Source: Enterobacteria phage IME177
DNA: 39,224 nucleotides
Reading direction: 5' to 3' (one strand)
Sequence record: MZ398247.1
Part shown: positions 1-12,303 of the stretch, one piece after another
Layout of the letters: the number at the start of each line of letters is the position of its first letter
Numbering within the stretch: position 1 is the first letter of the stretch
The notes under the pieces: model-generated
What the model was told of the DNA's origin: nothing
Database searches by the model: none
The model's input: only the letters and a program-made list of their open reading frames with translations
Program-made: the position numbers and the translations under genes

Positions 1-1228
1 TGGAGTCCCAATTTTCCGTGACCTAGCCTTCCGTAACAAGAAGGTTGGGGCCTCAGAGATTAAGGACCTGCACAATGTTATCTTCGGTAAGGAACTGGAT
101 GACTCAATCCGTCCGTCTAAACAGGATGTCATTGACCGTCTGCGATCTTACAGTGACCTCGGTCGTGGTACAGCTACAGCTCTGGGGACTGCCAAGTATT
201 ACACTGGCGAACTTGCAGTACGCTCTCCGTTCACTAAACTCCTCAACGGTACGACCAACTACCTGTTAGATGCTGGACGTCAAGGCTTCCTGTCTGACAT
301 CGTGGAGCATAGCCTGACTGGTAGTAAGCGTAAGTTCGATGACCGCTGGCTTAAGACCGCTGGTATCTCTGACGAGCAGTGGAAGGGCATTAAGTCCCTC
401 ATCCGTGAGTCAGTGACTCGTGGTCCAGACGGGAAGTACACCATCAAGGATAAGAAGGCGTTCAGTCAGGACCCAAGGGCTATGGACCTGTGGCGTATGG
501 GTGACACCATCGCAGATGAAACGTTACTCCGTCCTCATAAGCTGTCCAACATGGACGCCAAGGCTTATGGTCCTCTCGCTAAGACTGTCCTTCAGTTTAA
601 GAACTTCGTCATCAAGTCCATCAATGGTCGAACCATGCGAACATTCTATAACGCCACGAAGAACAACCGAGCGATGGACGCTGCACTGTCTACTGTGATG
701 TCTATGGGTCTGGCTGGTATCTACTACATGGCTCAGGCGCACGTCAAGGCTTACGCTATGCAGGACGGTCGAGACCGAGATTATCTCAAGCAAGCTCTGG
801 ACCCAACGATGATTGCCTATGCGGCCCTGTCCCGTAGTTCACATCTGGGTGGACCACTTGGGGTAGCTAACATTCTAGGTGGCATCGCTGGGTATGAGGA
901 CACTAAGATGCTCCGTTCGTCTATCCTCCCGCGTTCACCTACAGAGAAACCCGAACGTGCCATCTCATATGGTGCGGCTACAAGTGACCCTGTGATGAAT
1001 GTCGTTGGTAACTTCTTGGAGCAGGTCCCGGCTTTCGGCTATGCTGCTAACGTTGGAGCTTCGGCATACAACTTGGCTGGCTACCTCAAGGCTGATACTC
1101 GTGTCAACGAGCGGGACTACATGACCGGGATGTATAATACGTTCCGTGAACTGGTTCCGAACGACCCGATTACTCAGAAGTTGCTACTGGGAACGTTTGA
1201 GGAGCAAGGTATCCACATCAAGGACTAA
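1..1228 (+). CDS. gp16: internal virion protein D (gp16), C-terminal part; 5' part of the same gene is at 36505-39224 (circular permutation)
   Basis: Frame beginning at nt 2 is open from the window start to the stop at 1226-1228. Translation (GVPIFRD...LLNGTTNYLLDAGRQG...SRSS...NDPITQKLL) is colinear with the C-terminal third of T7 gp16 as recalled. Window end ca + base 1 t completes a His codon. Confidence 0.9.
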   Translation, partial: GVPIFRDLAFRNKKVGASEIKDLHNVIFGKELDDSIRPSKQDVIDRLRSYSDLGRGTATALGTAKYYTGELAVRSPFTKLLNGTTNYLLDAGRQGFLSDIVEHSLTGSKRKFDDRWLKTAGISDEQWKGIKSLIRESVTRGPDGKYTIKDKKAFSQDPRAMDLWRMGDTIADETLLRPHKLSNMDAKAYGPLAKTVLQFKNFVIKSINGRTMRTFYNATKNNRAMDAALSTVMSMGLAGIYYMAQAHVKAYAMQDGRDRDYLKQALDPTMIAYAALSRSSHLGGPLGVANILGGIAGYEDTKMLRSSILPRSPTEKPERAISYGAATSDPVMNVVGNFLEQVPAFGYAANVGASAYNLAGYLKADTRVNERDYMTGMYNTFRELVPNDPITQKLLLGTFEEQGIHIKD

Positions 1229-1246
1229 ACTATCACTATAGGAAAC
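1224..1246 (+). promoter_or_regulatory. phage RNA polymerase promoter (phi17-like), predicted +1 at 1241
   Basis: actaaactatcactataggaaac; TCACTATAGG core identical to T7 class III promoters; 50 nt upstream of the tail fibre gene. Confidence 0.8.
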
Positions 1247-1292
1247 TGGAGGCGCTACCATAGGTCTCCGTTTAAATAACAAAGGAGGCATA

Positions 1293-3824
1293 ATGTCCAC
1301 GATTACACAATTCCCTACAGGAAACACTCAGTACAGGATTGAGTTCGACTACCTAGCCAGAACGTTTGTTGTTGTTACGCTGGTGAATAGCTCTAACCCT
1401 ACCCTGAACCGTGTACTGGAAGTTGGTCGAGATTACCGATTCCTTAATCCAACGATGGTTGAGATGTTGGTTGACCAATCAGGTTTCGACATCGTTCGCA
1501 TTCACCGTCAGACTGGAACTGACTTAGTGGTAGACTTCAGGAATGGCTCAGTGTTGACAGCTAGTGACCTGACCAATTCAGAGCTTCAGGCTATCCATAT
1601 TGCAGAAGAAGGTCGAGACCAAACGGTTGACTTAGCGAAGGAATATGCCGATGCTGCTGGTAGCTCTGCTGGCAACGCTAAGGATAGCGAGGACGAAGCA
1701 CGCCGAATCGCTGCGAGTATCAGGGAAGCTGGTCTAATTGGCTATATTACCCGTCGCTCCTTCGAGAAAGGCTACAACGTTACAACATGGAGCGAGGTCC
1801 TGCTATGGGAAGAGGATGGTGATTATTACCGCTGGGATGGTACGCTTCCAAAGAGTGTTCCTGCTGGTTCAACTCCTGAAACTTCCGGTGGGATTGGATT
1901 AGGTGCGTGGGTTAGTGTTGGTGATGCTGCTTTAAGAAGTCAGATTTCAAACCCGGAAGGGGCAATACTCTACCCGGAATTGCAGATGGCAAGATGGCGT
2001 GATGAGGGTGATGTTCGAGGCTGGGGTGCTAAAGGGGATGGTGTAACAGATAGTACGGAGAATATAGCCGCTTCACTAAATTCTCAAAAAGCTGTCGTAG
2101 CATCAGAAGGTGTATTCTCTAGTTCTGGTATTAATAGTGATTACTGTAACTTAGACGGTAGAGGCAGTGGGGTGCTAAGTCACCGTTCCAGTACAGGTAA
2201 CTACTTAGTATTTAACAATCCACGTACAGGTCGCTTAAGTAATATTACGGTAGAAAGTAATAAGGCGACGGATACCACTCAGGGACAGCAGGTATCTCTT
2301 GCTGGTGGCAGTGATGTTACGGTAAGTGACGTTAACTTCTCAAACGTTAAAGGTACTGGTTTCAGTTTAATCGCATACCCTAATGATGCGCCACCTGATG
2401 GGCTTATGATTAAAGGCATTCGAGGTAGCTATTCCGGCTATGCCACTAATAAGGCGGCTGGATGCGTACTTGCTGACTCCTCAGTTAACTCCCTCATAGA
2501 TAACGTCATTGCTAAGAACTACCCTCAGTTCGGAGCTGTAGAGCTGAAAGGTACAGCCAGTTACAACATAGTTAGTAATGTTATAGGGACAGATTGCCAG
2601 CATGTAACCTACAACGGTACTGAAGGGTCAATAGCTCCTTCTAATAACCTTATCAAGGGGGTAGTTGCTAATAATCCTAAATATGCAGCGGTTGTTGCAG
2701 GCAAAGGTAGTACCAACTTAATCTCCGATGTGCTTGTAGATTTCTCAACCTCTGATGCTAGGCAGGCTCATGGTGTTACAGTAGAAGGTCCTGATAACGT
2801 CATAAATAATGTGCTTATGTCAGGGTGTGATGGTACTAACTCTTTAGGGCAAGCTCAAACTGCTACAATTGCACGCTTTATAGATACAGCTAATAACAAC
2901 TATGCGTCTGTATTTCCTAGCTACAGTGCTACAGGTGTTATTACTTTCGAATCAGGTTCTACCCGTAACTTCGTAGAGGTAAAGCATCCGGGAAGGAGAA
3001 ACGACCTTCTCAGTGCTACTGGTACTATTAGCGGTGCAGATACTATTGACGGCACTAATAATAGCAACGTAGTGCACGCCCCTGCATTAGGGCAGTACAT
3101 AGGCAGTATGTCCGGTAGGTTCGAATGGCGGATTAAGTCCATGTCACTTCCATCAGGGGTTCTTACCTCTGCGGATAAGTACAGGATGCTTGCCGATGGG
3201 GCTGTGTCATTAGCTGTAGGCGGAGGTACTTCTTCTCAAGTACGCCTGTTCACTTCTGACGGCACTTATAGGAATATATCACTTACTAGCGGTAACGTGC
3301 GTCTTCCTACCAGTAGCACAGGTTATTTGCAGTTAGGTTCTAATGCAATGACCCCAGATAGTACTAATACATACGCATTAGGTTCCGCAAGTCGAGCATG
3401 GTCTGGCGGTTTTACTCAATCAGCATTCACTGTTGTCTCAGATGCTAGGGATAAAACAGAGCCTCTTAATATCTCAGATGCTTTACTGGATGCTTGGTCT
3501 GAAGTTGACTTTGTGCAGTTTCAGTACTTGGACCGAATTGAGGAGAAGGGTGCAGACTCAGCTAGATGGCACTTCGGCATCATCGCTCAGCGAGCTAAGG
3601 AGGCCTTCGAACGTCACGGTATAGATGCACACCGCTATGGCTTCCTGTGCTTCGACAGTTGGGATGATGTATACGAGGAAGATGCCAATGGCTCTCGTAA
3701 ACTGATTACACCAGCAGGTTCCCGCTACGGTATTCGTTACGAGGAAGTACTGATATTAGAGGCTGCGTTGATGCGGCGTACTATTAAGCGTATGCAGGAA
3801 GCATTAGCTGTTATGTCTAAGTGA
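1293..3824 (+). CDS. gp17: tail fibre / tailspike protein: T7 gp17-like N-terminal anchor + pectate-lyase-3-like beta-helix domain + C-terminal intramolecular chaperone (peptidase S74-like) domain
   Basis: 843-aa ORF with RBS aaaggagg. N-terminus (EFDYLARTFVVVTL...HIAEEGRD) resembles T7 gp17 N-terminal domain; WGAKGDGVTDSTENIAASL is the hallmark start of pectate-lyase-3 beta-helix domains; C-terminus carries SDARDK...RWHFGIIAQRAKEAF, the pattern of self-cleaving chaperone domains of phage tailspikes. Confidence 0.88.
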   Translation: MSTITQFPTGNTQYRIEFDYLARTFVVVTLVNSSNPTLNRVLEVGRDYRFLNPTMVEMLVDQSGFDIVRIHRQTGTDLVVDFRNGSVLTASDLTNSELQAIHIAEEGRDQTVDLAKEYADAAGSSAGNAKDSEDEARRIAASIREAGLIGYITRRSFEKGYNVTTWSEVLLWEEDGDYYRWDGTLPKSVPAGSTPETSGGIGLGAWVSVGDAALRSQISNPEGAILYPELQMARWRDEGDVRGWGAKGDGVTDSTENIAASLNSQKAVVASEGVFSSSGINSDYCNLDGRGSGVLSHRSSTGNYLVFNNPRTGRLSNITVESNKATDTTQGQQVSLAGGSDVTVSDVNFSNVKGTGFSLIAYPNDAPPDGLMIKGIRGSYSGYATNKAAGCVLADSSVNSLIDNVIAKNYPQFGAVELKGTASYNIVSNVIGTDCQHVTYNGTEGSIAPSNNLIKGVVANNPKYAAVVAGKGSTNLISDVLVDFSTSDARQAHGVTVEGPDNVINNVLMSGCDGTNSLGQAQTATIARFIDTANNNYASVFPSYSATGVITFESGSTRNFVEVKHPGRRNDLLSATGTISGADTIDGTNNSNVVHAPALGQYIGSMSGRFEWRIKSMSLPSGVLTSADKYRMLADGAVSLAVGGGTSSQVRLFTSDGTYRNISLTSGNVRLPTSSTGYLQLGSNAMTPDSTNTYALGSASRAWSGGFTQSAFTVVSDARDKTEPLNISDALLDAWSEVDFVQFQYLDRIEEKGADSARWHFGIIAQRAKEAFERHGIDAHRYGFLCFDSWDDVYEEDANGSRKLITPAGSRYGIRYEEVLILEAALMRRTIKRMQEALAVMSK

Positions 3825-3928
3825 GTAATACTGGTACGGTATTTTCTCACAATGAAATCGTTGAACACGCTAACCAACGTATGTAACAACTTTGGGTCAC
3901 GGACGACCCGCTTTAAACTGGAGGTTTT

Positions 3929-4123
3929 ATGATTGAGTTAGACTTCAAGAATGAGGTCCTTAAAGCCTCTCCTATCGTCGGGACCGCTGCGGCTGATGGT
4001 GCCAGTCGGTTCTTCTTCGGACTTACACTAAACGAATGGTTCTACGTTGCAGCTATCGCGTACACCGTTGTCCAGATTGGTGTGCTAGTCTACAAAACGA
4101 TTAAAGGAGGTGGTAAAACATGA
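3929..4123 (+). CDS. gp17.5: holin (T7 gp17.5-like)
   Basis: 64 aa, one TM segment, ...PIVGTAAADGASRFFFGLTLNEWFYVAAIAYTVVQIG closely matches T7 gp17.5 as recalled; RBS ctggagg. Confidence 0.85.
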   Translation: MIELDFKNEVLKASPIVGTAAADGASRFFFGLTLNEWFYVAAIAYTVVQIGVLVYKTIKGGGKT

Positions 4124-4383
4124 CGCAGATGGACTTAGAGAAGTTCCTCTTAATGCTAGATACTGAACGTGCTCGACTCATGCTGCAAGACCTGCGGGAT
4201 GACACTAAGCGTTCACCCCAGCTTTACAACGCCATTGAGAAGCTACTGGCTCGTCACAACTTTGTGTTAAGCAAGGTGTCCGTGGACGAGAAGACGCTGG
4301 CTGATATGGAGGCCCTGAACGCAGAGTACGATAAGGTGCTTTCAGCGACTGAGGATAATGACACCGGGTATGGTGTTCAATAA
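4120..4383 (+). CDS. gp18: terminase small subunit (gp18-like)
   Basis: 87 aa, start overlaps holin stop (ATGA); ...RSPQLYNAIEKLLARH matches T7 gp18 pattern; position upstream of large terminase. Confidence 0.8.
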   Translation: MTQMDLEKFLLMLDTERARLMLQDLRDDTKRSPQLYNAIEKLLARHNFVLSKVSVDEKTLADMEALNAEYDKVLSATEDNDTGYGVQ

Positions 4384-4387
4384 GTGT

Positions 4388-4437
4388 TAGACTCAAGGTC
4401 ATTACTGTATGTAGTGGCCTTTATGGTTAACACTAAC
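4388..4437 (+). promoter_or_regulatory. conserved hairpin element, candidate RNase III processing site (copy 1 of 3)
   Basis: tagactcaaggtcattactgtatgtagtggcctttatggttaacactaac; AAGGUCA pairs with UGGCCUU; near-identical copies at 12871-12920 and 20265-20312. Confidence 0.5.
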
Positions 4438-4484
4438 TAGTGGAGGCGACTCTACGTGAAATCTGATAAACCGGGAGGGCAACT

Positions 4485-4919
4485 ATGCTCGAATTTTTAA
4501 AGAGAGCGGCTCCGTGGCTACTTGCAGCAGTGATGTTTGCTGGTGGCTACCACACCGCTAACAATAAGTGGGAGGCTAAAGTAAATGAAGAATACATCAC
4601 GAAACTTGAGGCACGAGAGAGTCAACGAACTGCTATCCAAGCACGAGTCGATGAAGTCTCAGCGGAGTGGCAGGACAAGATGTCCTCGCTGGAAGGCTCT
4701 ACTGATAGGATTATTAATGACCTTAACCGCGATAACAAGCGGCTGCTCGTCAAAGTCAAGACCTCAGGTCTCAGCGAGCCAGATTACAGTCGATGCTTCC
4801 CTAATGGTAGAGTCGAACTACACCCAGAAACTTCTAAAAGTCTTATCCGAATAACGCAAGAAGCTGACCTTAAGGAGAAAGCTCTACAGGAAACCATAAG
4901 GAGGTTGCGTGGCGAATAA
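4485..4919 (+). CDS. gp18.5: Rz-like i-spanin (gp18.5-like)
   Basis: 144 aa, N-terminal TM segment then coiled-coil-like charged sequence; Rz1-like ORF embedded in +1 frame; T7 gp18.5 position. Confidence 0.8.
4585..4854 (+). CDS. gp18.7: Rz1-like o-spanin lipoprotein embedded in the i-spanin gene (gp18.7-like); true start may be internal
   Basis: +1 frame ORF inside 4485-4919; ...[23 protein letters not shown] contains a lipobox (ITSGC) and resembles T7 gp18.7 as recalled. Confidence 0.6.
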   Translation: MKNTSRNLRHERVNELLSKHESMKSQRSGRTRCPRWKALLIGLLMTLTAITSGCSSKSRPQVSASQITVDASLMVESNYTQKLLKVLSE

Positions 4920-6678
4920 GAAAACACCTGCTGAAAGACAGGCAGAAATGACCCAAAGGATGAGGGATGACTTCGTGTTCTTCATCTTCGTTCTATGGAA
5001 AGCTCTGAGCCTTCCTGTTCCAACACGCTGCCAGATAGATATGTGTAAGAAGCTGGCGGCTGGAGATAATCGACGCTTCATCCTTCAAGCATTCCGTGGT
5101 ATTGGAAAGTCGTTCCTGACCTGTGGTTTCGTGGTCTGGAAGTTATGGAATAACCCGGACTTGAAGTTCATGATTGTGTCGGCCTCAAAGGAACGAGCTG
5201 ATGCTAACTCCATATTCATCAAGCGAATCATCGACCTCATGCCTCAGCTTCAGGAACTCAAACCTAAGCAAGGGCAGCGAGATGCGGTTATCAGCTTCGA
5301 CGTTGGACCAGCCAAGCCAGACCACTCACCTTCGGTTAAGTCCGTTGGTATCACTGGTCAGTTGACTGGTAGTCGTGCTGACATCCTGATTGCCGATGAC
5401 GTGGAGGTTCCAAACAACTCAGCGACTCAGGCTGCACGAGACCGCCTGTCAGAGCTTGTGAAAGAGTTCGACGCTATCCTGAAGCCGGGAGGTACAATCA
5501 TTTATCTGGGTACTCCTCAGAACGAGATGACCCTGTACCGTGAGTTGGAAGGTCGTGGGTACACCACTACTATCTGGCCTGCTCGTTATCCACGAGACAG
5601 AAAGGACTGGCAGTCTTACGGCGACCGTCTGGCACCGATGCTTCAGGCAGAGCTGGAAGAGGACCCTGAGTCCTTCTACTGGCGTCCGACCGATGAAGTA
5701 CGATTTGATGATACGGACCTGAAGGAACGTGAGCTGTCCTATGGTAAAGCTGGCTTCGCTCTACAGTTCATGCTTAACCCTAACCTGAGTGATGCTGAGA
5801 AGTACCCTCTGAAGCTCCGTGACCTTATCGTAGCCGACTTGGACCCAGCGTCTAGCCCAATGGTATACCAATGGCTTCCTAACCCTCAGAACAAGCGTGA
5901 GGACGTTCCTAACGTTGGACTCATGGGTGACTCATACCACACGTATCAGACTGTAGGTTCTGCCTTCAGTTCGTACACCCAGAAGATTCTGGTCATTGAC
6001 CCTAGTGGTCGTGGTAAAGATGAAACTGGTTATGCGGTACTGTCCCAGCTCAACGGCTACATCTTCGCTATGGAAGTTGGCGGTATGCGAGGTGGCTATG
6101 AAGACTCTACGCTGGAAGCCTTGGCTAAGATTGGTCGTAAGTGGAAGGTCAACGAATACGTCATTGAGGGTAACTTCGGTGATGGTATGTACCTTGAGCT
6201 ATTCAAGCCTGTAGCTTCCCGTATTCATCCTGCTGCTGTAACTGAAGTGAAGAGTAAGGGTCAGAAGGAACTCCGCATCTGTGACGTTCTGGAGCCTATC
6301 ATGGGGTCTCACCGACTTATCGTCAACGCTTCTGCTATCGTCCAAGACTACCAGACAGCCTCTGACAAGGATGGTGTGCGTAACCCTATCTACTCTCTCT
6401 TCTATCAGATGACCCGTATCTCTCGTGAACGTGGAGCACTGGCACACGATGACCGACTTGATGCGCTGGCTATCGGTGTACAGTTCTTCGTTGAGTCTAT
6501 GGCTAAGGATGCCAACAAAGGCGAACGTGAAGTCACTGAGGAGTGGCTGGAGGAACAGATGGAGAACCCACGGAAAGGCTTCGAGTCCATCCACACTGAG
6601 TTCTGGGACAATGGGGTCCGGGTAACTCACGATACGGACGACGAGCTGGGGCTAGGGTCCTACGTTACGTTCCACTAG
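4909..6678 (+). CDS. gp19: terminase large subunit (gp19-like), probable GTG start
   Basis: 589 aa; RBS ataaggagg; ...[13 protein letters not shown]..., [40 protein letters not shown] colinear with T7 gp19 as recalled. Confidence 0.93.
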
Positions 6679-6772
6679 CTGAGTGAATAACTATGGGTGA
6701 AAGCTGCATGAATACGCAGTTAGTAACCTATAGTTACTACCAGTCTAACCTACTGTTTTATAAGGAGTTTAG

Positions 6773-6795
6773 ACTTAACTATCACTATAGGGAAG
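6773..6795 (+). promoter_or_regulatory. phage RNA polymerase promoter (phiOR-like), predicted +1 at 6790
   Basis: acttaactatcactatagggaag downstream of the large terminase gene, the position of T7 phiOR. Confidence 0.8.
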
Positions 6796-6854
6796 ACCCC
6801 CGGTTACTTATAGTATTACTGTAGTGAATATACATATGCAGACTTTATGCAAGA

Positions 6855-6931
6855 CCTTAGGAGGCAGACTCCGAGTTCTTACCTAAGGCTTGCACCGATG
6901 GAAGGAGGGTGATATTAATCATAATCCCTCC
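6855..6931 (+). promoter_or_regulatory. two hairpins downstream of phiOR-like promoter (7-bp IR ccttagg/cctaagg; 6-bp IR ggaggg/ccctcc around a palindromic AT-rich loop)
   Basis: Inverted repeats 6855-6861/6882-6888 and 6904-6909/6926-6931 read directly from the sequence; region corresponds to the T7 right-end packaging/junction region. Confidence 0.4.
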
Positions 6932-6975
6932 AATACAGATAGTCACCGACCATAGATACAGGAGGTATGTAGCAT

Positions 6976-7134
6976 ATGGCAAAGACCAAAGCTGTACTTA
7001 AAGCTCTGGCGACCAATCGAGCTACATACAGGTTTCTTGCTGCTGTTCTACTTGCTGCTGGCGTTACTGCTGGAAGTAAGTGGGTCGGGTGGGTCGAGAC
7101 TCTCGTATGTTCTCTGGTGTCTCAGTGTAATTAA
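6976..7134 (+). CDS. small hydrophobic protein (gp19.5-position ORF)
   Basis: 52-codon ORF with strong RBS caggagg 8 nt upstream; hydrophobic core LAAVLLAAGVTAG; last ORF before the genome-end region. Below the 60-aa cutoff of the ORF track. Confidence 0.45.
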   Translation: MAKTKAVLKALATNRATYRFLAAVLLAAGVTAGSKWVGWVETLVCSLVSQCN

Positions 7135-7935: not shown

Positions 7936-7965
7936 TTGACAAGATGTACCGACTTAAAGTAGTAT
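7936..7965 (+). promoter_or_regulatory. sigma70-type early promoter (A2/A3-like): -35 TTGACA, -10 TAGTAT
   Basis: ttgacaagatgtaccgacttaaagtagtatgtaccac parallels T7 A3 (TTGACAacatgaagtaaacacggTACGATgtaccac as recalled). Confidence 0.55.
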
Positions 7966-8173: not shown

Positions 8174-8677
8174 ATGGAACGTAACGCTAACGCATACTAT
8201 GAGCTGCTGGCTGCAACCGTTGAGGCATTTATCGAGCGTATTCAGTACGACCACCTGACTAAAGATGATGACTACAGCGATGCGCTGCATGAGGTCGTAG
8301 ACAGTCAGGTCCCGCTCTATTACCACGAGATTTTCACGGTGATGGCTGCTGATGGTATAGACCACGAGTTCGAAGACTCTGGGCTGATGCCTGAAACCAA
8401 GGACGTAACGCGTATCCTACAAGCTCGCATCTATGAGGCACTTTATAACGACGTGTCTAATAGCTTGGATGTAGTCTGGTTTGAGGATGAAGAGGCAGAC
8501 GAAGAGGATGAATATTGGGTAGTTGACGCTAAAACAGGCGCAATAATTGTGCAAGCTGTAGCTCTTGAGGTCGCTACTGCATGTGCCAAGGTCAACTATG
8601 TGATAGGTCGCCACCTGAAGGTGGAAGACATCAATGATAACGTAGTGTTCGACCCTGCGGCTGAGGACTGCGAGTGA
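8174..8677 (+). CDS. gp0.3: Ocr-like anti-restriction DNA-mimic protein (gp0.3-like) with an extra ~50-aa C-terminal extension
   Basis: 167 aa, first gene after the early promoters; [44 protein letters not shown] matches the core of T7 Ocr as recalled; highly acidic; T7 Ocr is 117 aa. Confidence 0.8.
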
Positions 8678-8893
8678 TGATAACTTACGGTTTATGCCAG
8701 CACCACGTCACCAACGCCCGGATTTTGGTCAAGACCGGGCGGTTAAACCACGAGGAGGCCATGCGTCTCTTGAAAGTGGTCTACAGGAGGCGCAAGCGCA
8801 TACACGACAGCCTACACGCTGAGTGATAAACGAGAGGTCATCTGACTGATAGGTGGCCTCAAAGATTATCACTTACATTGATAGGAGTTAACT

Positions 8894-8998
8894 ATGAGCA
8901 CTGCAATCATCTGGACTATCTCAGGCTTCGTAGCGTGGGGAATGTTTACTCTAGTCTGCAAACTACCGGTCCTTACTCAACTGTTATGGGGCTTATGA
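8894..8998 (+). CDS. small hydrophobic early protein (34 aa)
   Basis: ATG preceded by RBS ggag; sequence MSTAIIWTISGFVAWGMFTLVCKLPVLTQLLWGL is membrane-like; stop overlaps next start (ATGA). Not in ORF track because <60 aa. Confidence 0.4.
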   Translation: MSTAIIWTISGFVAWGMFTLVCKLPVLTQLLWGL

Positions 8999-9198
8999 CT
9001 ATGAGTATCGCACTATTGATAGCCATAGGCTATGGACTTATCGCCTACGTGCTGGTGAGAGACATCAACAAAGCGCGTAAAGTCTACAAATTAAACTATG
9101 TACGTCTGGGTCGCTGGACTGTACGTCAACCTAACGGACGATTCCTGCGCAATTTAGCGAACGTCTGGGATATAGCAACTCTTGGGAGCAAACTGTAA
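8995..9198 (+). CDS. small early membrane protein (67 aa)
   Basis: In-frame ATG of track ORF 8878-9198; TM segment SIALLIAIGYGLIAYVLV followed by basic tail; translationally coupled to flanking ORFs. Confidence 0.45.
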   Translation: MTMSIALLIAIGYGLIAYVLVRDINKARKVYKLNYVRLGRWTVRQPNGRFLRNLANVWDIATLGSKL

Positions 9199-9524
9199 TG
9201 AACAAGTCATACGGGATTAATCTGGTACACTCTATGGACGCAGAAATGAACATGTTAAGCCTACTGGCTACCGGGTATCGTCACGGAACGTCAAGTCACA
9301 CCGCACGTCAACAGCAGGAGCGGGACCGTGTACTACAGGCGCGACTCCGGGCAGAGGGCCATAAGTCCGAACTGATGTGTCTGGCGTATGGTGGACGACC
9401 AATCACCGACGATGGTAAACTTCTGGTATCAGGCTGGAAGGCGATAGACCAACGGTCAACCATCAAGCACACGACTCACGGTGACTTCAGCCATCTCCAC
9501 GCTAACCCACTGATATGCAAGTGA
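9198..9524 (+). CDS. hypothetical early protein (108 aa) at the position of T7 gene 0.7; no kinase motifs
   Basis: ORF starts with TAATG overlap of upstream stop; last gene before the RNA polymerase gene; no similarity recognised. Confidence 0.5.
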   Translation: MNKSYGINLVHSMDAEMNMLSLLATGYRHGTSSHTARQQQERDRVLQARLRAEGHKSELMCLAYGGRPITDDGKLLVSGWKAIDQRSTIKHTTHGDFSHLHANPLICK

Positions 9525-9529
9525 TTATG

Positions 9530-9552
9530 ACTTAACTATCACTATAGGACTC
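9530..9552 (+). promoter_or_regulatory. phage RNA polymerase promoter directly upstream of the RNA polymerase gene, predicted +1 at 9547
   Basis: cttaactatcactataggactca; 75 nt upstream of the gene 1 start codon. Confidence 0.75.
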
Positions 9553-9621
9553 AAGGTCTAAGACTCCAAGTGAAAGACCAAAGAGACTTTAAGTGAAAGA
9601 CTAATAACAAGGACTTTAAGT

Positions 9622-12303
9622 ATGAGCGTCATCTCTATTGATAAACACGACTTCTCTGATGTGTCGAACGCCATTGAGCCGTTTAACCTGCTGGCCGACC
9701 ACTACGGGCAAGACCTTGCAGTCAAACAGCTTCAGCTTGAGCATGAGGCATATACAGAAGGCGAGCGACGTTTCATCAAGAACCTTGAGCGCCAGACCGA
9801 GCGCGGGGAACTGGCAGACAATCAGGTCGCCAAGCCTTTGATGCAGACTCTGGTCCCTAAGATTGCGCAAGCCGTCAGGGAGTGGCACGAAGGCCTAGAC
9901 GGGAAGCTGTCAACCTCGCGTCCTAGCGTAGCGTTCACCATGTTGAGCACTGAAGAGAAGGCCGTAAAGGACCGCTCTATGCGCATCTCCTGTGAGTCCG
10001 CTGCGGTTATCATACTGAAGGTCATACTCTCCAAGCTGGTCAAGCCTGAAGGGATACCGATTACACCGATGGCCTCCGCGATAGGTCGCACACTTGAGGA
10101 CGAAATCCGCTTCGGTCGCATCCGTGACAAAGAGAAGGAGCACTTCAAGAAGGCGATAGCTGAGAACCTGAACAAGCGAGCTGGGGCATCCTACAAGAAA
10201 GCCTACATGCAAGCGGTCGAGGCGTCCATGCTGGAGCAAGGCCAACTGGAAGATGCATGGGGGACTTGGAGTCCTACAGAGGCTGTCCACGTTGGCATCA
10301 AGATGCTCGAGATTGTCATCCAGTCAACACAACTGGTCGAGCTTAAGCGGTACGGTGCTGGTAATGCAGCGGCTGACGTAGAGATGGTCCACCTGTCAGA
10401 CTTCTGGGTCAAGAAGATGGCACAACGAGGATTCAGCCTTGCGGGTATCGCTCCAGTCTACCAGCCTTGCGTCGTTCCGCCTAAGCCGTGGACTGGTGTC
10501 GTAGGTGGTGGGTACTGGGCCAAAGGTCGCAGACCGTTACCATTGATTCGCTTAGGGTCTAAGTCTGCGGTAGCACGTTATGAAGACGTATACATGCCTG
10601 AAGTCTATGACGCTGTGAACATCATTCAGAATACACCTTGGAAAGTTAACAAGAAGGTATTGGACGTGGTGAACATGGTCGAGAAGCTGAACAACACGCC
10701 TATTGATGACATCCCTCAGATGGAACCGCTGAAGCCTGAGGACTATGCTGGTGAAACCGAGGAGGAACTCAAGGCATGGAAGAAGGCTGCTGCTGGTATC
10801 TATCGCCGCGAGAAGGCCAGACAGTCACGCAGATTGTCCATGAGTTTCATCGTATCACAGGCCAACAAGTTCTCACAGTTTAAGGCCATCTGGTTCCCGT
10901 ACAACATGGATTGGCGAGGTCGTGTCTACGCTGTCCCGATGTTCAACCCTCAGGGTAACGACATGCAGAAGGGTCTACTGACTCTGGCGGTCGGAAAGCC
11001 TATCGGGGCGGATGGTTTCAAATGGCTTAAAGTCCACACCGCCAACTGCGCGGGTGTCGATAAGGTAACCTTTGAGGAGCGTATCAAATGGGTGGAAGAC
11101 AATCACGAGAACATTCTGGCAGCAGCCAAATCACCGATGGACAGCATCGAGTGGTGGGGGAGTATGGACAGCCCCTTCTGCTTCCTAGCGGCTTGCTTCG
11201 AGTATTCTGGGGTGATGAACCATGGCTTGACCTACAATTGCTCACTTCCGATTGCCTTCGACGGCTCGTGTTCGGGGATTCAGCACTTCAGCGCGATGCT
11301 GAGGGACCACGTAGGCGGACATGCAGTGAACTTAACGCCGTCTGGTCAGGTGCAGGACATCTACCGTATAGTCTCAGACCGTGTGTCAGACCAGTTGAAA
11401 GAGCTATTACTGAGCGGTACGGACGACGAGCTGGTGACCGTAGAGGACAAGAAGACTGGGGAAATCAGCGAACGCCTGAAGCTTGGGACCAAGAGTCTTG
11501 CGCGTCAGTGGCTGCAATTCGGTATGTCTCGCTCGGTCACTAAGCGCTCGGTCATGACTCTGGCCTACGGGTCGAAAGAGTATGGGTTCGCCGACCAAGT
11601 GTTCGAAGACACCGTGATGCCAGCGATTGACTCCGGTAAGGGAGCAATGTTCACCGAGCCAAGCCAAGCGTCTCGCTTCATGGCTAAGATGATTTGGGAA
11701 GCTGTGAGTGTGACAGTAGTTGCTGCGGTTGACGCGATGAAGTGGCTTCAAGGTGCCGCCAAGCTGCTGGCTGCTGAAGTGAAGGACAAGAAGACTGGTG
11801 AAATCCTGAAGCCATGCCTTCCGGTACACTGGGTCACACCTGATGGGTTCCCGGTCTGGCAGGAATACCGCAAGAAGGATACCACTCGTCTGAACCTGAT
11901 GTTCTTAGGGTCCTTCAACCTTCAACCTACGGTCAACAAAGGTACGAAGAAAGAGCTGGACAAGCACAAGCAGGAGTCAGGCATTAGCCCGAACTTCGTC
12001 CACTCACAAGATGGTAGCCACCTCCGCAAGACTGTAGTCCACACTCACCGAAAGTATGGCGTGATGTCATTCGCAGTGATTCACGATAGCTTCGGGACCA
12101 TCCCGGCTGACGCTGAGTATCTGTTCCGTGGCGTCCGTGAGACGATGGTAGAGACTTACCGCGATAACGATGTGCTGCTTGACTTCTACGAGCAGTTTGA
12201 ATACCAGCTTCATGAAAGTCAGCGCGACAAGTTGCCTGAGCTTCCGAAGAAAGGTAAACTGAATATCGAAGACATCTTGTCTTCAGACTTTGCATTCGCT
12301 TAA
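9622..12303 (+). CDS. gp1: single-subunit DNA-directed RNA polymerase (T7 gp1-like)
   Basis: 893 aa; colinear with T7 RNAP as recalled, including catalytic-Asp motifs AFDGSCSGIQHFSAMLRD and VIHDSFGTIPADA, specificity-loop region LNLMFLGSFNLQPTVNKGTK, C-terminal FAFA. Confidence 0.97.
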   Translation: MSVISIDKHDFSDVSNAIEPFNLLADHYGQDLAVKQLQLEHEAYTEGERRFIKNLERQTERGELADNQVAKPLMQTLVPKIAQAVREWHEGLDGKLSTSRPSVAFTMLSTEEKAVKDRSMRISCESAAVIILKVILSKLVKPEGIPITPMASAIGRTLEDEIRFGRIRDKEKEHFKKAIAENLNKRAGASYKKAYMQAVEASMLEQGQLEDAWGTWSPTEAVHVGIKMLEIVIQSTQLVELKRYGAGNAAADVEMVHLSDFWVKKMAQRGFSLAGIAPVYQPCVVPPKPWTGVVGGGYWAKGRRPLPLIRLGSKSAVARYEDVYMPEVYDAVNIIQNTPWKVNKKVLDVVNMVEKLNNTPIDDIPQMEPLKPEDYAGETEEELKAWKKAAAGIYRREKARQSRRLSMSFIVSQANKFSQFKAIWFPYNMDWRGRVYAVPMFNPQGNDMQKGLLTLAVGKPIGADGFKWLKVHTANCAGVDKVTFEERIKWVEDNHENILAAAKSPMDSIEWWGSMDSPFCFLAACFEYSGVMNHGLTYNCSLPIAFDGSCSGIQHFSAMLRDHVGGHAVNLTPSGQVQDIYRIVSDRVSDQLKELLLSGTDDELVTVEDKKTGEISERLKLGTKSLARQWLQFGMSRSVTKRSVMTLAYGSKEYGFADQVFEDTVMPAIDSGKGAMFTEPSQASRFMAKMIWEAVSVTVVAAVDAMKWLQGAAKLLAAEVKDKKTGEILKPCLPVHWVTPDGFPVWQEYRKKDTTRLNLMFLGSFNLQPTVNKGTKKELDKHKQESGISPNFVHSQDGSHLRKTVVHTHRKYGVMSFAVIHDSFGTIPADAEYLFRGVRETMVETYRDNDVLLDFYEQFEYQLHESQRDKLPELPKKGKLNIEDILSSDFAFA

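What the first reader, a model, noticed from the sequence alone, without database searches (positions are those of the whole stretch)
8894..9524. Early-region accessory module replacing T7 genes 0.4-0.7; no protein kinase
Between the Ocr-like gene and the RNA polymerase gene, T7 has genes 0.4-0.7 including the 0.7 kinase. Here there are instead two tiny translationally coupled membrane-type ORFs (8894-8998, 8995-9198) and a 108-aa protein (9198-9524), none with kinase motifs. Small early membrane proteins in T7-like phages include cell-division inhibitors (T7 gp0.4 targets FtsZ), so these are candidate host-takeover factors with unknown targets.
Basis: partly seen in the sequence, partly recalled or inferred. 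Interest (0 to 1): 0.5.

Follow-up and report, generated by a model that had tools for sequence, protein, structure and literature searches.

The report
Ordinary K1F-type phage early genes
The three small genes are real, conserved early genes of K1F-like (T7-related) phages whose functions are still unknown, but they do not replace T7's cell-division inhibitor, because a diverged copy of that gene sits just upstream and was overlooked.

Summary
The window is a Kayfunavirus (K1F-like) genome. The three ORFs at 8894-8998, 8995/9001-9198 and 9198-9524 exist and are real genes. All are under purifying selection (dN/dS 0.05-0.22), and the first two have a hydrophobic N-terminal segment. No kinase is encoded anywhere in the window.

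It belongs to the same Pfam family (PF26807) as T7 gp0.4 and keeps 5 of 6 FtsZ-contact residues. Gene 0.4 is therefore retained.
- The T7/T3 RNase III site R0.5 is also retained (8822-8873).
- The 65-67-aa protein is a homologue of T3 gp0.6, not of T7 gp0.6.
- The 34-aa peptide is the CR44b gp0.41 / CR8 gp0.705 family. It is one of three unrelated hydrophobic peptides that alternate in this slot.
- The 108-aa protein is the orphan EcoDS1 gp0.38 family, with a helical model and no informative fold match.
- In relatives the same trio sits next to a short gp0.7-type kinase, so it does not replace the kinase.

All three families are already deposited as hypothetical proteins in about 36-220 phage records. 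Function is unproven. The likeliest role is non-essential host-takeover or counter-defence, with two proteins at the inner membrane. The best FtsZ-inhibitor candidate is the upstream gp0.4-like gene.

The parts
8174..8677 (+). ocr (gene 0.3) homologue, 167 aa; upstream context
   Evidence: Pfam ocr PF08684 E 9.4e-29 over residues 8-94. phrog_2568, ocr-like anti-restriction, E 2.2e-53.
8677..8826 (+). 49-aa gp0.4-like gene (EcoDS1 'gp0.35', K1F AAZ72965). Its ATG overlaps the ocr stop (TGATG). It is the best candidate FtsZ inhibitor.
   Evidence: phrog_5058 E 8.9e-25, and it hits the T7-gp0.4 family phrog_7202 at 0.022. T7 gp0.4 hits phrog_5058 at 9e-5. hhalign probability 86.5%, E 4.6e-6, 35% identity over 40 columns. 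PF26807.1 is precomputed on both subfamilies. Five of six FtsZ-contact residues are identical.
8822..8873 (+). RNase III site R0.5 homologue: a hairpin with an internal loop that starts in the last codons of the gp0.4-like gene
   Evidence: MFE -24.7 kcal/mol, z -4.44, 0 of 200 shuffles as stable. Invariant blocks are shared with the T7 sequence at the position corresponding to T3's R0.5 and with the annotated T3 R0.5 (alignment A3; T3 feature table).
8883..8887 (+). Shine-Dalgarno AGGAG, 6 nt before ATG 8894, inside the conserved leader cattgataggagttaact
   Evidence: Read from the sequence. The same leader precedes whichever peptide gene occupies this slot in most relatives.
8894..8998 (+). 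34-aa single-pass hydrophobic peptide gene (family of CR44b gp0.41 and CR8 gp0.705)
   Evidence: Found in 36 phage records at 100% coverage, always 34 codons. dN/dS 0.05-0.15 at pS 0.44-0.75. Kyte-Doolittle maximum 1.82 at residues 4-22. No PHROG or Pfam hit. Not homologous to T7 gp0.5.
8995..9198 (+). T3-type gp0.6 homologue: an N-terminal membrane anchor followed by a very basic ~45-aa tail. 67 aa from ATG 8995; 65 aa from ATG 9001, which is the more probable start.
   Evidence: phrog_2385 E 4.7e-32. blastp to T3 gp0.6: 41% identity, E 9e-10; 80% identity to CR8 gp0.71. pI 11.0, Kyte-Doolittle maximum 2.35 at residues 3-21. dN/dS 0.15 over the C-terminal 43 codons. No homology to T7 gp0.6A.
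9198..9524 (+). 108-aa soluble basic helical protein of the EcoDS1 gp0.38 / CR8 '0.38' family. Its ATG overlaps the preceding TAA; SD GGGAG at 9184-9188.
   Evidence: phrog_7066 E 3.2e-46. 144 clusters, none with a Pfam domain. Only 13 representatives among 1.84 billion proteins. AF2 pLDDT 70.6 with helices 9-25, 33-52, 56-63 and 71-88. BFVD hit to EcoDS1 Gp0.38. dN/dS 0.17, including the first 30 codons.
9526..9550 (+). Phage-RNAP promoter (cttaactaTCACTATAGG) between the 108-aa gene and gene 1. It marks the downstream end of the host-RNAP-only stretch that holds the trio.
   Evidence: The core TCACTATAGG occurs 9 times exactly, plus once with one mismatch, on the + strand; 11 matches on both strands against 2.3 expected. 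Flanks match the consensus. No copy lies between 6791 and 9539.
9622..12303 (+). Gene 1, T7-type single-subunit RNA polymerase (893 aa); downstream context
   Evidence: ORF. 97-100% identical to the RNAP of K1F and other Kayfunaviruses and 48% to T7 over the first 193 residues.

Best explanation
Interval 8894-9524 is the distal part of the early (class I, host-RNA-polymerase-transcribed) operon of a K1F-like Kayfunavirus.

Shown:
- It holds three genuine protein genes with overlapping or nearly overlapping stop and start codons.
- They lie downstream of a conserved homologue of the T7/T3 RNase III site R0.5 and upstream of the first phage promoter.
- Gene 1 is a 34-aa single-pass hydrophobic peptide. 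It is one of at least three unrelated small hydrophobic peptides (34, 29 or 55 aa) that alternate in this slot among close relatives.
- Gene 2 is a homologue of T3 gp0.6. It has an N-terminal membrane anchor and a strongly conserved, very basic ~45-residue tail.
- Gene 3 is a soluble, basic, helical 108-aa protein of the orphan gp0.38 family. Its most conserved element is the C-terminal motif HTTxGDFSHL.
- The T7 gene 0.4 homologue is retained immediately upstream, at 8677-8826.
- Lack of the gp0.7 kinase is the majority state in this clade.

Inferred:
- RNase III releases the trio as a separate mRNA, and coupling sets the protein ratios.
- The basic tail of the gp0.6-like protein faces the cytoplasm (positive-inside rule) and binds a conserved membrane-proximal host component.
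- The gp0.38-like protein binds a cytoplasmic host factor through its C-terminal motif.
- All three are dispensable host-takeover or counter-defence factors. The rapidly swapped peptide slot reflects host- or competitor-specific selection.
- FtsZ inhibition is most probably done by the upstream gp0.4-like protein, not by these ORFs.
For: - Identity of the phage: 95-97% nucleotide identity to Kayfunavirus genomes.
- Coding status: dN/dS 0.05-0.22 for all three genes, and strict length conservation of the 34-codon ORF.
- Family assignments: phrog_2385 and phrog_7066; T3 gp0.6 at E 9e-10, CR8 gp0.71 at 80% identity and CR8 '0.38' at 44% identity; CR8 gp0.705 at 47% identity; EcoDS1 Gp0.38.
- R0.5 homologue.
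- Slot turnover and modularity: ORF maps of 27 loci show three alternative peptides, HNH endonuclease insertions between gene 2 and gene 3, and CR44b (L018) with the 34-aa gene but no gp0.6-like gene.
- Kinase coexists with the trio in CR8 and in six Kayfunavirus loci. The short kinase at 80% identity or more is in 47 records, against about 220 records with the trio's larger genes.
- gp0.4 is retained.
- FtsZ-contact residues are taken from PMC13423816.
- K1F infection filaments cells and produces multiple Z-rings although 'no gp0.4' was found by BLAST (PMC9372555).
- No phage promoter core lies between 6791 and 9539.
Against: - No experiment or database annotation gives a function for any of the three families. 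Pfam, NCBIfam, PADLOC and PDB sequence searches were empty. Fold searches returned only generic helical matches.
- Membrane insertion and topology rest on hydropathy and the positive-inside rule only.
- RNase III cleavage is inferred from homology to annotated T3 and T7 sites and was not measured.
- The TM segment of the gp0.6-like protein does not co-vary with the type of upstream peptide. That argues against a specific peptide-gp0.6 complex.
- In the gp0.4-like protein, the residue equivalent to the essential W28 of T7 gp0.4 is His. FtsZ binding is therefore not assured.
Confidence: 0.7

Rival explanations
1. One reading: the two small membrane ORFs, or one of them, are the phage's cell-division inhibitors and functionally replace T7 gp0.4 by acting on FtsZ or the divisome from the membrane.
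For: K1F infection causes filamentation with multiple Z-rings, and the responsible protein is unidentified (PMC9372555). These are early membrane proteins with unknown targets. The positional analogue T7 gp0.6 is described in the literature as targeting MreB (cited; otherwise my own knowledge).
Against: A gp0.4 homologue with 5 of 6 FtsZ-contact residues conserved lies immediately upstream, so no replacement is needed. T7 gp0.4 is not described as a membrane protein. The 34-aa peptide is in only about 36 of roughly 220 related records, and K1F itself carries a different 55-aa peptide. The 65-aa protein shows no homology to T7 gp0.6A.
Confidence: 0.08
2. The hydrophobic peptide and/or the gp0.6-like protein are superinfection-exclusion or membrane-level counter-defence factors. 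They would block DNA entry of competing phages, or neutralise a membrane-associated abortive-infection effector, at the inner membrane.
For: Early expression; predicted inner-membrane location; three unrelated peptides exchanged in one slot between flanks that are about 90-95% identical, the pattern expected of genes in an arms race. Accessory regions of enterobacterial phages are enriched in such functions (bioRxiv 10.1101/2023.04.06.535777).
Against: There is no homology to any known exclusion or anti-defence protein. PADLOC is empty. None of the peptide strings tested occurs in the supplementary files of two accessory-gene screens. The gp0.6-like tail is almost invariant across genera, which fits a conserved housekeeping target better than a fast-evolving defence target.
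Confidence: 0.17
3. The 34-codon ORF is not a functional protein. It would be only a translated leader whose role is to deliver ribosomes to the weakly initiating gp0.6-like gene.
For: Whichever peptide ORF is present stops within 0-4 nt of the gp0.6-like start, and that start has only a weak SD (GGGG or GGA).
Against: The amino-acid sequence is itself conserved: dN/dS 0.05-0.15 with near-saturated synonymous sites, exact length kept, and the motif KLPVxTQ kept as far as Caroctavirus CR8. CR44b keeps the 34-aa gene without any gp0.6-like gene, and L015 and L024 have the gp0.6-like gene without any leader ORF.
Confidence: 0.04
4. The 108-aa protein is the detached host-transcription shut-off module of gp0.7, or another transcription regulator. 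It would compensate for the missing kinase gene and act on host RNA polymerase or DNA.
For: It occupies the position just before gene 1, where T7 has gene 0.7. It is basic (pI 9.3) and helical. The Kayfunavirus and CR8 kinases are 242-244 aa and align only to the first ~230 residues of T7/T3 gp0.7, so they lack its C-terminal part.
Confidence: 0.08

Closest known systems
T3 gene 0.6 protein (NP_523298; phrog_2385; also phiYeO3-12 / AP5 gp0.6, EcoDS1 gp0.6, K1F '0.6', CR8 gp0.71)
   Same: The 65-67-aa ORF has the same length, the same N-terminal TM helix, the conserved motif TVRxxNGRF...IAT, and the same position after the R0.5 site. A TM helix is also predicted for AP5 gene 0.6 (PMC4283147).
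   Different: Only 41% identical to T3 gp0.6. In T3 no small peptide ORF precedes it, and genes 0.65 and 0.7 follow it instead of a gp0.38-like gene. No function is known for any member.
T7 genes 0.5 and 0.6A/B (a hydrophobic 47-aa protein, then gp0.6, described in the literature as an MreB inhibitor)
   Same: Same slot and same architecture: the R0.5 site, then a small hydrophobic ORF whose stop overlaps the start of a ~55-65-aa basic protein (ATGA).
   Different: No detectable sequence relationship. BLASTP finds nothing at E up to 100 and hhalign probability is below 1%. T7 gp0.6A has no TM segment. The genes are positional analogues, not homologues.
T7 gp0.4, the FtsZ inhibitor and trigger of CapRel-Ebc (Pfam PF26807)
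   Same: This applies to the upstream 49-aa ORF, not to the finding's ORFs. It has the same size, the same one-base overlap with the ocr stop, the same Pfam family, and identical equivalents of V15, V22, M32, L35 and Y39.
   Different: 28-33% identity in alignment A6 (35% over the 40 hhalign columns). W28 is replaced by His. None of the five residues that contact CapRel-Ebc is identical. FtsZ binding has not been tested.
EcoDS1 gp0.38 / CR8 '0.38' / phrog_7066
   Same: The 108-aa ORF is a full member. It has the conserved ~80-aa core, the position immediately upstream of gene 1, and coupling to the preceding gene.
   Different: The N-terminal extension varies (forms of 83, 86, 108, 130 and 139 aa). 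The family is uncharacterised and confined to roughly 40-kb T7-like phages.
T7/T3 gp0.7 protein kinase
   Same: Nothing in the window resembles it. Relatives carry a 242-244-aa kinase-domain-only homologue in the same early region.
   Different: Absent here. The 108-aa protein is not related to the gp0.7 C-terminal domain.

Membership tests
T3 gp0.6 family (phrog_2385), for ORF 8995/9001-9198 | Significant sequence similarity over the full length | tested here: met
   phrog_2385 E 4.7e-32. blastp to T3 gp0.6: 41% identity, E 9e-10.
T3 gp0.6 family (phrog_2385), for ORF 8995/9001-9198 | N-terminal TM helix followed by a basic tail, located downstream of RNase III site R0.5 in the early operon | tested here: met
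   Kyte-Doolittle maximum 2.35 at residues 3-21 and pI 11.0. R0.5 homologue at 8822-8873. T3 layout.
T7 gp0.6 (MreB inhibitor; phrog_8393) | Sequence or profile similarity to T7 gp0.6A | tested here: not met
   BLASTP finds no alignment at E up to 100. hhalign probability 0.6%. PHROG families differ.
T7 gp0.5 (phrog_16572), for ORF 8894-8998 | Sequence or profile similarity | tested here: not met
   BLASTP finds no alignment. hhalign probability 0.4%. No PHROG hit.
T7 gp0.5 (phrog_16572), for ORF 8894-8998 | Small hydrophobic protein encoded right after R0.5 and overlapping the next gene | tested here: met
   This is positional and physicochemical analogy only.
CR44b gp0.41 / CR8 gp0.705 peptide family, for ORF 8894-8998 | 34 codons, conserved sequence under purifying selection | tested here: met
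   91% identity to CR44b and 47% to CR8. dN/dS 0.05-0.29.
EcoDS1 gp0.38 family (phrog_7066), for ORF 9198-9524 | Conserved ~80-aa core ending in HTTxGDFSHL, encoded immediately upstream of gene 1 | tested here: met
   phrog_7066 E 3.2e-46. Alignments A1 and A5. BFVD hit to EcoDS1 Gp0.38.
gp0.7 serine/threonine kinase | Kinase-domain homology anywhere in the window | tested here: not met
   tblastn with four gp0.7 proteins gives no hit below E=1. No Pfam kinase domain.
gp0.7 C-terminal host shut-off domain, for ORF 9198-9524 | Profile similarity to the C-terminal ~130 residues of T7/T3 gp0.7 | tested here: not met
   hhalign probability 0.1-0.7%.
T7 gp0.4 / PF26807, for upstream ORF 8677-8826 | Profile-level homology and shared Pfam family | tested here: met
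   (a family member against T7 gp0.4, E 4.6e-4). The name of PF26807 could not be read, because the local Pfam copy lacks it.
T7 gp0.4 / PF26807, for upstream ORF 8677-8826 | FtsZ-contact residues V15, V22, W28, M32, L35, Y39 | tested here: inconclusive
   Five of six are identical; W28 is replaced by His (alignment A6; residues from PMC13423816).
T7 gp0.4 / PF26807, for upstream ORF 8677-8826 | Binds FtsZ and blocks division | not testable with these tools
   Indirect support only: K1F infection filaments cells (PMC9372555).

The most novel reading that the evidence does not exclude
The almost invariant basic tail of the T3-type gp0.6 protein and the HTTxGDFSHL motif of gp0.38 define a previously unrecognised host-takeover pair, one protein at the membrane and one in the cytoplasm. 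The pair would be conserved across Kayfunavirus and Caroctavirus and would hit a conserved host target. This would explain how roughly 80% of K1F-like phages manage without the broadly anti-defence gp0.7 kinase. The swappable 29/34/55-aa peptide slot would be a separate arms-race cassette. Alongside this, the upstream 49-aa gp0.4-like protein would be the unidentified K1F FtsZ inhibitor, with a surface that no longer matches the CapRel-Ebc sensor.
Probability: 0.12. Interest if true: 0.6.

Novelty: new member of a known kind. Interest (0 to 1): 0.3.

Why it matters
- For annotation: the early region of K1F-like phages is syntenic with T7 and T3 (0.3, 0.4-like, R0.5, hydrophobic peptide, 0.6-like, then gp0.38 and gene 1). 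It is not a foreign replacement module, and lack of the kinase is the normal state of the genus.
- For biology: a 2022 study reported that K1F blocks FtsZ yet 'lacks gene 0.4' and left the inhibitor unknown (PMC9372555). The 49-aa gene next to this finding is a profile-level gp0.4 homologue, which makes that question directly testable.
- The three ORFs of the finding itself are conserved, selected and completely uncharacterised. They are reasonable but not exceptional targets for host-takeover or anti-defence screens in phages used therapeutically against E. coli K1, Salmonella Typhi and Enterobacter.

Tried and rejected
1. Homology of the 34-aa and 65-aa ORFs to T7 gp0.5 and gp0.6A. BLASTP and hhalign were negative, so they are positional analogues only.
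2. The 108-aa protein as the detached C-terminal shut-off domain of gp0.7. hhalign against T7 and T3 gp0.7, and against a 16-sequence alignment of the C-terminal domain, gave probability below 1%.
3. Fold-based function for the 108-aa protein.
   - The first AF2 model (23 sequences) had pLDDT 58.6, and Foldseek against PDB found nothing.
4. Distant homologues of the 108-aa family. An exhaustive profile search of 1.84 billion representatives gave 13 hits, all of them members or fragments.
5. Pfam, NCBIfam, PADLOC and PDB sequence searches gave no informative hits.
6. Published accessory-gene screens (Silas et al. preprint and the 2025 Nat Commun paper). None of the peptide strings tested occurs in the supplementary files.
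7. The 9520-9624 spacer as an R1 RNase III site. The hairpin is not more stable than shuffles (z -0.6) and aligns poorly with T7 and T3 R1. The strong feature there is a phage promoter instead.
8. The K1F genome paper could not be read because it is not held.
9. The hhalign probability of 100% between the 65-aa family and 'T3 gp0.6' is inflated, because both alignments contain Kayfunavirus sequences. I rely on the direct blastp result.
Full report
**What the window is.** The 1.6 kb around the finding is 95-97% identical to many Kayfunavirus genomes (K1F-like Studiervirinae), including EcoIv10b_Midid, vB_EcoP-R1 and LM33_P1. In all, 261 phage records match. vB_EcoP-R1 has the same region length and the same homologous ORFs. 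Many other relatives carry about 670 extra bases in this region.

**Check of the observation.** The three ORFs are present at the stated coordinates. The junctions are as described.
- The stop of the 34-codon ORF (TGA 8996-8998) overlaps ATG 8995 and lies 2 nt before ATG 9001.
- The stop of the middle ORF (TAA 9196-9198) overlaps ATG 9198.
- AGGAG lies 6 nt before ATG 8894, and GGGAG lies before ATG 9198.

Hydropathy supports one TM-length segment in each of the first two proteins. The Kyte-Doolittle 19-residue maxima are 1.82 at residues 4-22 and 2.35 at residues 3-21. The 108-aa protein has none (0.74).

No kinase is present. There is no Pfam kinase hit. tblastn with T7, T3, CR8 and Kayfunavirus gp0.7 against the whole window gives no hit below E=1.

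The ORFs are not chance ORFs.
- The 34-codon ORF is found at full length in 36 phage records. It shows dN/dS 0.05-0.15 in pairs whose synonymous sites are 44-75% different.
- Pooled dN/dS is 0.22 for the middle gene, and 0.15 for its C-terminal 43 codons.
- Pooled dN/dS is 0.17 for the 108-aa gene. Its first 30 codons also give 0.17, which supports the 9198 start.

K1F and most relatives begin the middle gene at the position of ATG 9001. I consider 9001 (65 aa) the likelier start.

A 49-codon ORF lies directly after ocr (8174-8677; Pfam ocr 9.4e-29). It runs 8677-8826, and its ATG overlaps the ocr stop (TGATG). T7 gene 0.4 overlaps gene 0.3 in the same way. Several results show it is a diverged gp0.4.
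- It belongs to phrog_5058, and T7 gp0.4 hits that family at 9e-5. In return it hits the T7 gp0.4 family phrog_7202 at 0.022.
- A profile-profile comparison of 21 Kayfunavirus sequences with 13 T7-type sequences gives probability 86.5% and E 4.6e-6. The match is collinear over 40 of 49 residues.
- A family member matches T7 gp0.4 directly at E 4.6e-4.
- In the 5.8-billion-protein collection, both the Kayfunavirus type and the T7 type (for example a protein 92% identical to T7 gp0.4, and CR8 gp0.4) carry the same precomputed Pfam family, PF26807.1. The local Pfam copy does not hold that model, so I could not read its name.

PMC13423816 shows that T7 Gp0.4 is a two-helix protein that binds FtsZ. 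Alanine substitutions at V15, V22, W28, M32, L35 or Y39 abolish its toxicity. In alignment A6 these positions correspond to V11, V18, H25, M29, L32 and Y36 of the window protein. Five of six are identical. The five residues that contact the CapRel-Ebc sensor (A12, T14, L16, S19, R23) are all different.

PMC9372555 reports that K1F infection gives filaments with multiple Z-rings. It states that K1F 'lacks the 0.4 genes' by BLAST and that the inhibitor is unknown. The K1F orthologue (AAZ72965, 82% identical) is the obvious candidate.

**RNA signals.** The spacer between the gp0.4-like gene and the 34-aa gene folds into a long interrupted hairpin (8822-8873). Its MFE is -24.7 kcal/mol with z -4.4. 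It shares invariant blocks with the annotated T3 R0.5 RNase III site and with the corresponding T7 sequence. The same element precedes the homologous peptide gene in CR8.

Downstream of the 108-aa gene lies a perfect copy of the phage promoter (cttaactaTCACTATAGG, core at 9539-9548). The core occurs 10 times on the + strand, nine exact and one with a single mismatch, and the 11 matches on both strands compare with 2.3 expected by chance. None lies between 6791 and 9539. The trio is therefore transcribed only from the host-type early promoters. A candidate TTGACA-18-TAGTAT promoter sits at 7936-7965. A proposed R1 hairpin in the 9520-9624 spacer is not supported (z -0.6; poor alignment).

**The 34-aa gene.** It has no PHROG or Pfam match and no relation to T7 gp0.5. 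It is the family annotated gp0.41 in Citrobacter phage CR44b and gp0.705 in Caroctavirus CR8 (47% identical).

ORF maps of 27 related loci show that the slot after the conserved leader 'cattgataggagttaactATG' holds one of three unrelated hydrophobic peptides.
- The 34-aa peptide.
- A 29-aa peptide, the most frequent.
- A 55-aa peptide with two hydrophobic segments, as in K1F.
- Sometimes two of these occur together, and sometimes none.

**The middle gene.** It is phrog_2385. It is 41% identical to T3 gp0.6 (E 9e-10) and 80% identical to CR8 gp0.71. It is the gene K1F's authors called 0.6. It is unrelated to T7 gp0.6A. Its tail ...LGRWTVRQPNGRFxRNLANVWDIATLGSKL is almost invariant from Kayfunavirus to CR8.

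**The 108-aa gene.** It is phrog_7066, the same family as EcoDS1 Gp0.38 and CR8 '0.38'.
- It has 144 clusters at 90% identity, none with a Pfam domain, almost all on contigs of about 40 kb.
- An exhaustive profile search of 1.84 billion representatives returns only 13 proteins.
- The conserved part is the C-terminal ~80 residues. N-terminal extensions differ, giving forms of 83, 86, 108, 130 and 139 aa.
- AF2 with 33 sequences gives pLDDT 70.6, with helices at 9-25, 33-52, 56-63 and 71-88. The tail (89-108) has low confidence, although it contains the invariant T92, G95, D96, F97, H99 and L100.
- It is not related to gp0.7 or to its C-terminal domain.

**Kinase.** Some Kayfunavirus loci (L014, L015, L020-L022, L024) and CR8 encode a 242-244-aa protein. 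It is 31-42% identical to the N-terminal kinase part of T7 and T3 gp0.7 (E 1e-34 to 1e-39). In those genomes the gp0.6-like and gp0.38-like genes are still present, and CR8 also has the 34-aa gene.

Proteins at least 80% identical to this short kinase occur in 47 phage records. The gp0.38 family occurs in 223 records and the gp0.6-like family in 220. Absence of the kinase is therefore the common state of the clade, and the trio is not its substitute.

**Modularity.** Several relatives show that the three genes are separable units rather than an obligate complex.
- Homing-type Endonuclease_7 genes are inserted between the gp0.6-like and gp0.38-like genes in four relatives.
- CR44b has the 34-aa gene but no gp0.6-like gene.
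- Deletion fusions exist, such as gp0.4-like::gp0.6-like (P0247) and 29-aa::gp0.6-like (L009).
- The TM segment of the gp0.6-like protein does not co-vary with the type of upstream peptide.

**Most likely mechanism (inference).**
- RNase III cuts at the R0.5 homologue. This leaves an mRNA that starts with a strong SD for the peptide gene.
- Ribosomes then pass to the weakly initiating gp0.6-like gene, and on to gp0.38, by termination-reinitiation.
- The peptide and the gp0.6-like protein insert into the inner membrane. By the positive-inside rule, the basic tail of the latter faces the cytoplasm.
- The near-invariance of that tail points to a conserved host partner.
- gp0.38 is a cytoplasmic binder that uses its conserved, probably disordered, C-terminal motif.
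- All three are probably dispensable accessory factors for host takeover or counter-defence.
- The rapid exchange of the peptide slot fits host- or competitor-specific selection.
- None of this has been tested. No homologue has a known function: T7 gp0.5 is still called uncharacterised (PMC12798971 and PMC11863960), and T3-type gp0.6 is listed as a hypothetical TM protein (PMC4283147).

**Verdict.** The finding is an ordinary, already-deposited Kayfunavirus early gene set made of uncharacterised families. The one point of wider interest is the overlooked gp0.4 homologue next to it, which bears on an open question about K1F.

Noticed in passing
window 8677-8826: A 49-aa gene coupled to ocr is a diverged homologue of T7 gp0.4 (same Pfam family, PF26807). 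Five of six FtsZ-contact residues are conserved, and none of the five CapRel-Ebc-contact residues is. A published study says K1F lacks gene 0.4 and that its FtsZ inhibitor is unknown.
   Followed up: yes
window 9526-9550: A consensus phage-RNAP promoter (cttaactaTCACTATAGG) sits immediately upstream of the phage RNA polymerase gene, which suggests self-transcription of gene 1. The T7 feature table for bases 1-6200 lists no phage promoter between phiOL and gene 1. The element is conserved in K1F, and CR8 has a predicted promoter at the same place.
   Followed up: partly
window 8822-8873: A conserved homologue of the T7/T3 RNase III processing site R0.5. It starts in the last codons of the gp0.4-like gene.
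   Followed up: yes
L001 (K1F, DQ111067) 2208-2468: The K1F record does not annotate its gp0.38 homologue. The reading frame is broken by an in-frame stop that looks like a +1/-1 pair of indels relative to L028, so only a 59-codon C-terminal ORF remains. This may be a sequencing error in the 2005 record.
   Followed up: partly
L012 2076-2498; L020 2076-2498; L021 2118-2552; L024 2076-2498: Endonuclease VII / HNH-type homing endonuclease genes (Pfam Endonuclease_7, 2.8e-26) are inserted exactly between the gp0.6-like and gp0.38-like genes in several relatives.
   Followed up: partly
L014 1416-2150; L049 (CR8) 703-1431: Some Kayfunaviruses and CR8 encode a short (242-244 aa) gp0.7 homologue that aligns only to the N-terminal ~230 residues of T7/T3 gp0.7. 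Pfam does not recognise it. It occurs in about 47 of roughly 220 related phage records.
   Followed up: partly
P0247; L009 2358-2501; P0245: Natural deletion fusions occur in this region: gp0.4-like N-terminus fused to the gp0.6-like C-terminus, the 29-aa peptide fused to the gp0.6-like C-terminus, and the 34-aa peptide fused to the gp0.6-like protein. These show frequent rearrangement. The 29-aa peptide also resembles the N-terminus of the gp0.6-like protein (IGYGIYDCIKRK against IGYGLIAYVLVRDINKARK).
   Followed up: no
window 8174-8677: The Ocr homologue is 167 aa, against 117 aa in T7. The Pfam ocr domain covers only residues 8-94, so there is a ~70-residue C-terminal extension that several relatives lack. 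In two GenBank records (ZH4, and LM33_P1 LT594300) this gene is mislabelled 'protein kinase'.
   Followed up: no
window 4909-7134: The window is circularly permuted relative to the phage genome. The terminase large subunit (4909-6678), a phage promoter (core at 6782-6791) and a 52-aa hydrophobic gp19.5-like ORF (6976-7134) precede the early region, so the physical genome ends lie roughly between 7135 and 7930.
   Followed up: no
L006 1237-1362 and many other loci: A conserved 41-aa ORF (MYQITYSSEQAFYDGCYEMMKRGACYVANHHSLTITLTGGY) follows the gp0.4-like gene in many relatives but is absent from the window. LM33_P1-type genomes instead carry a 75-aa Cys-rich ORF there.
   Followed up: no
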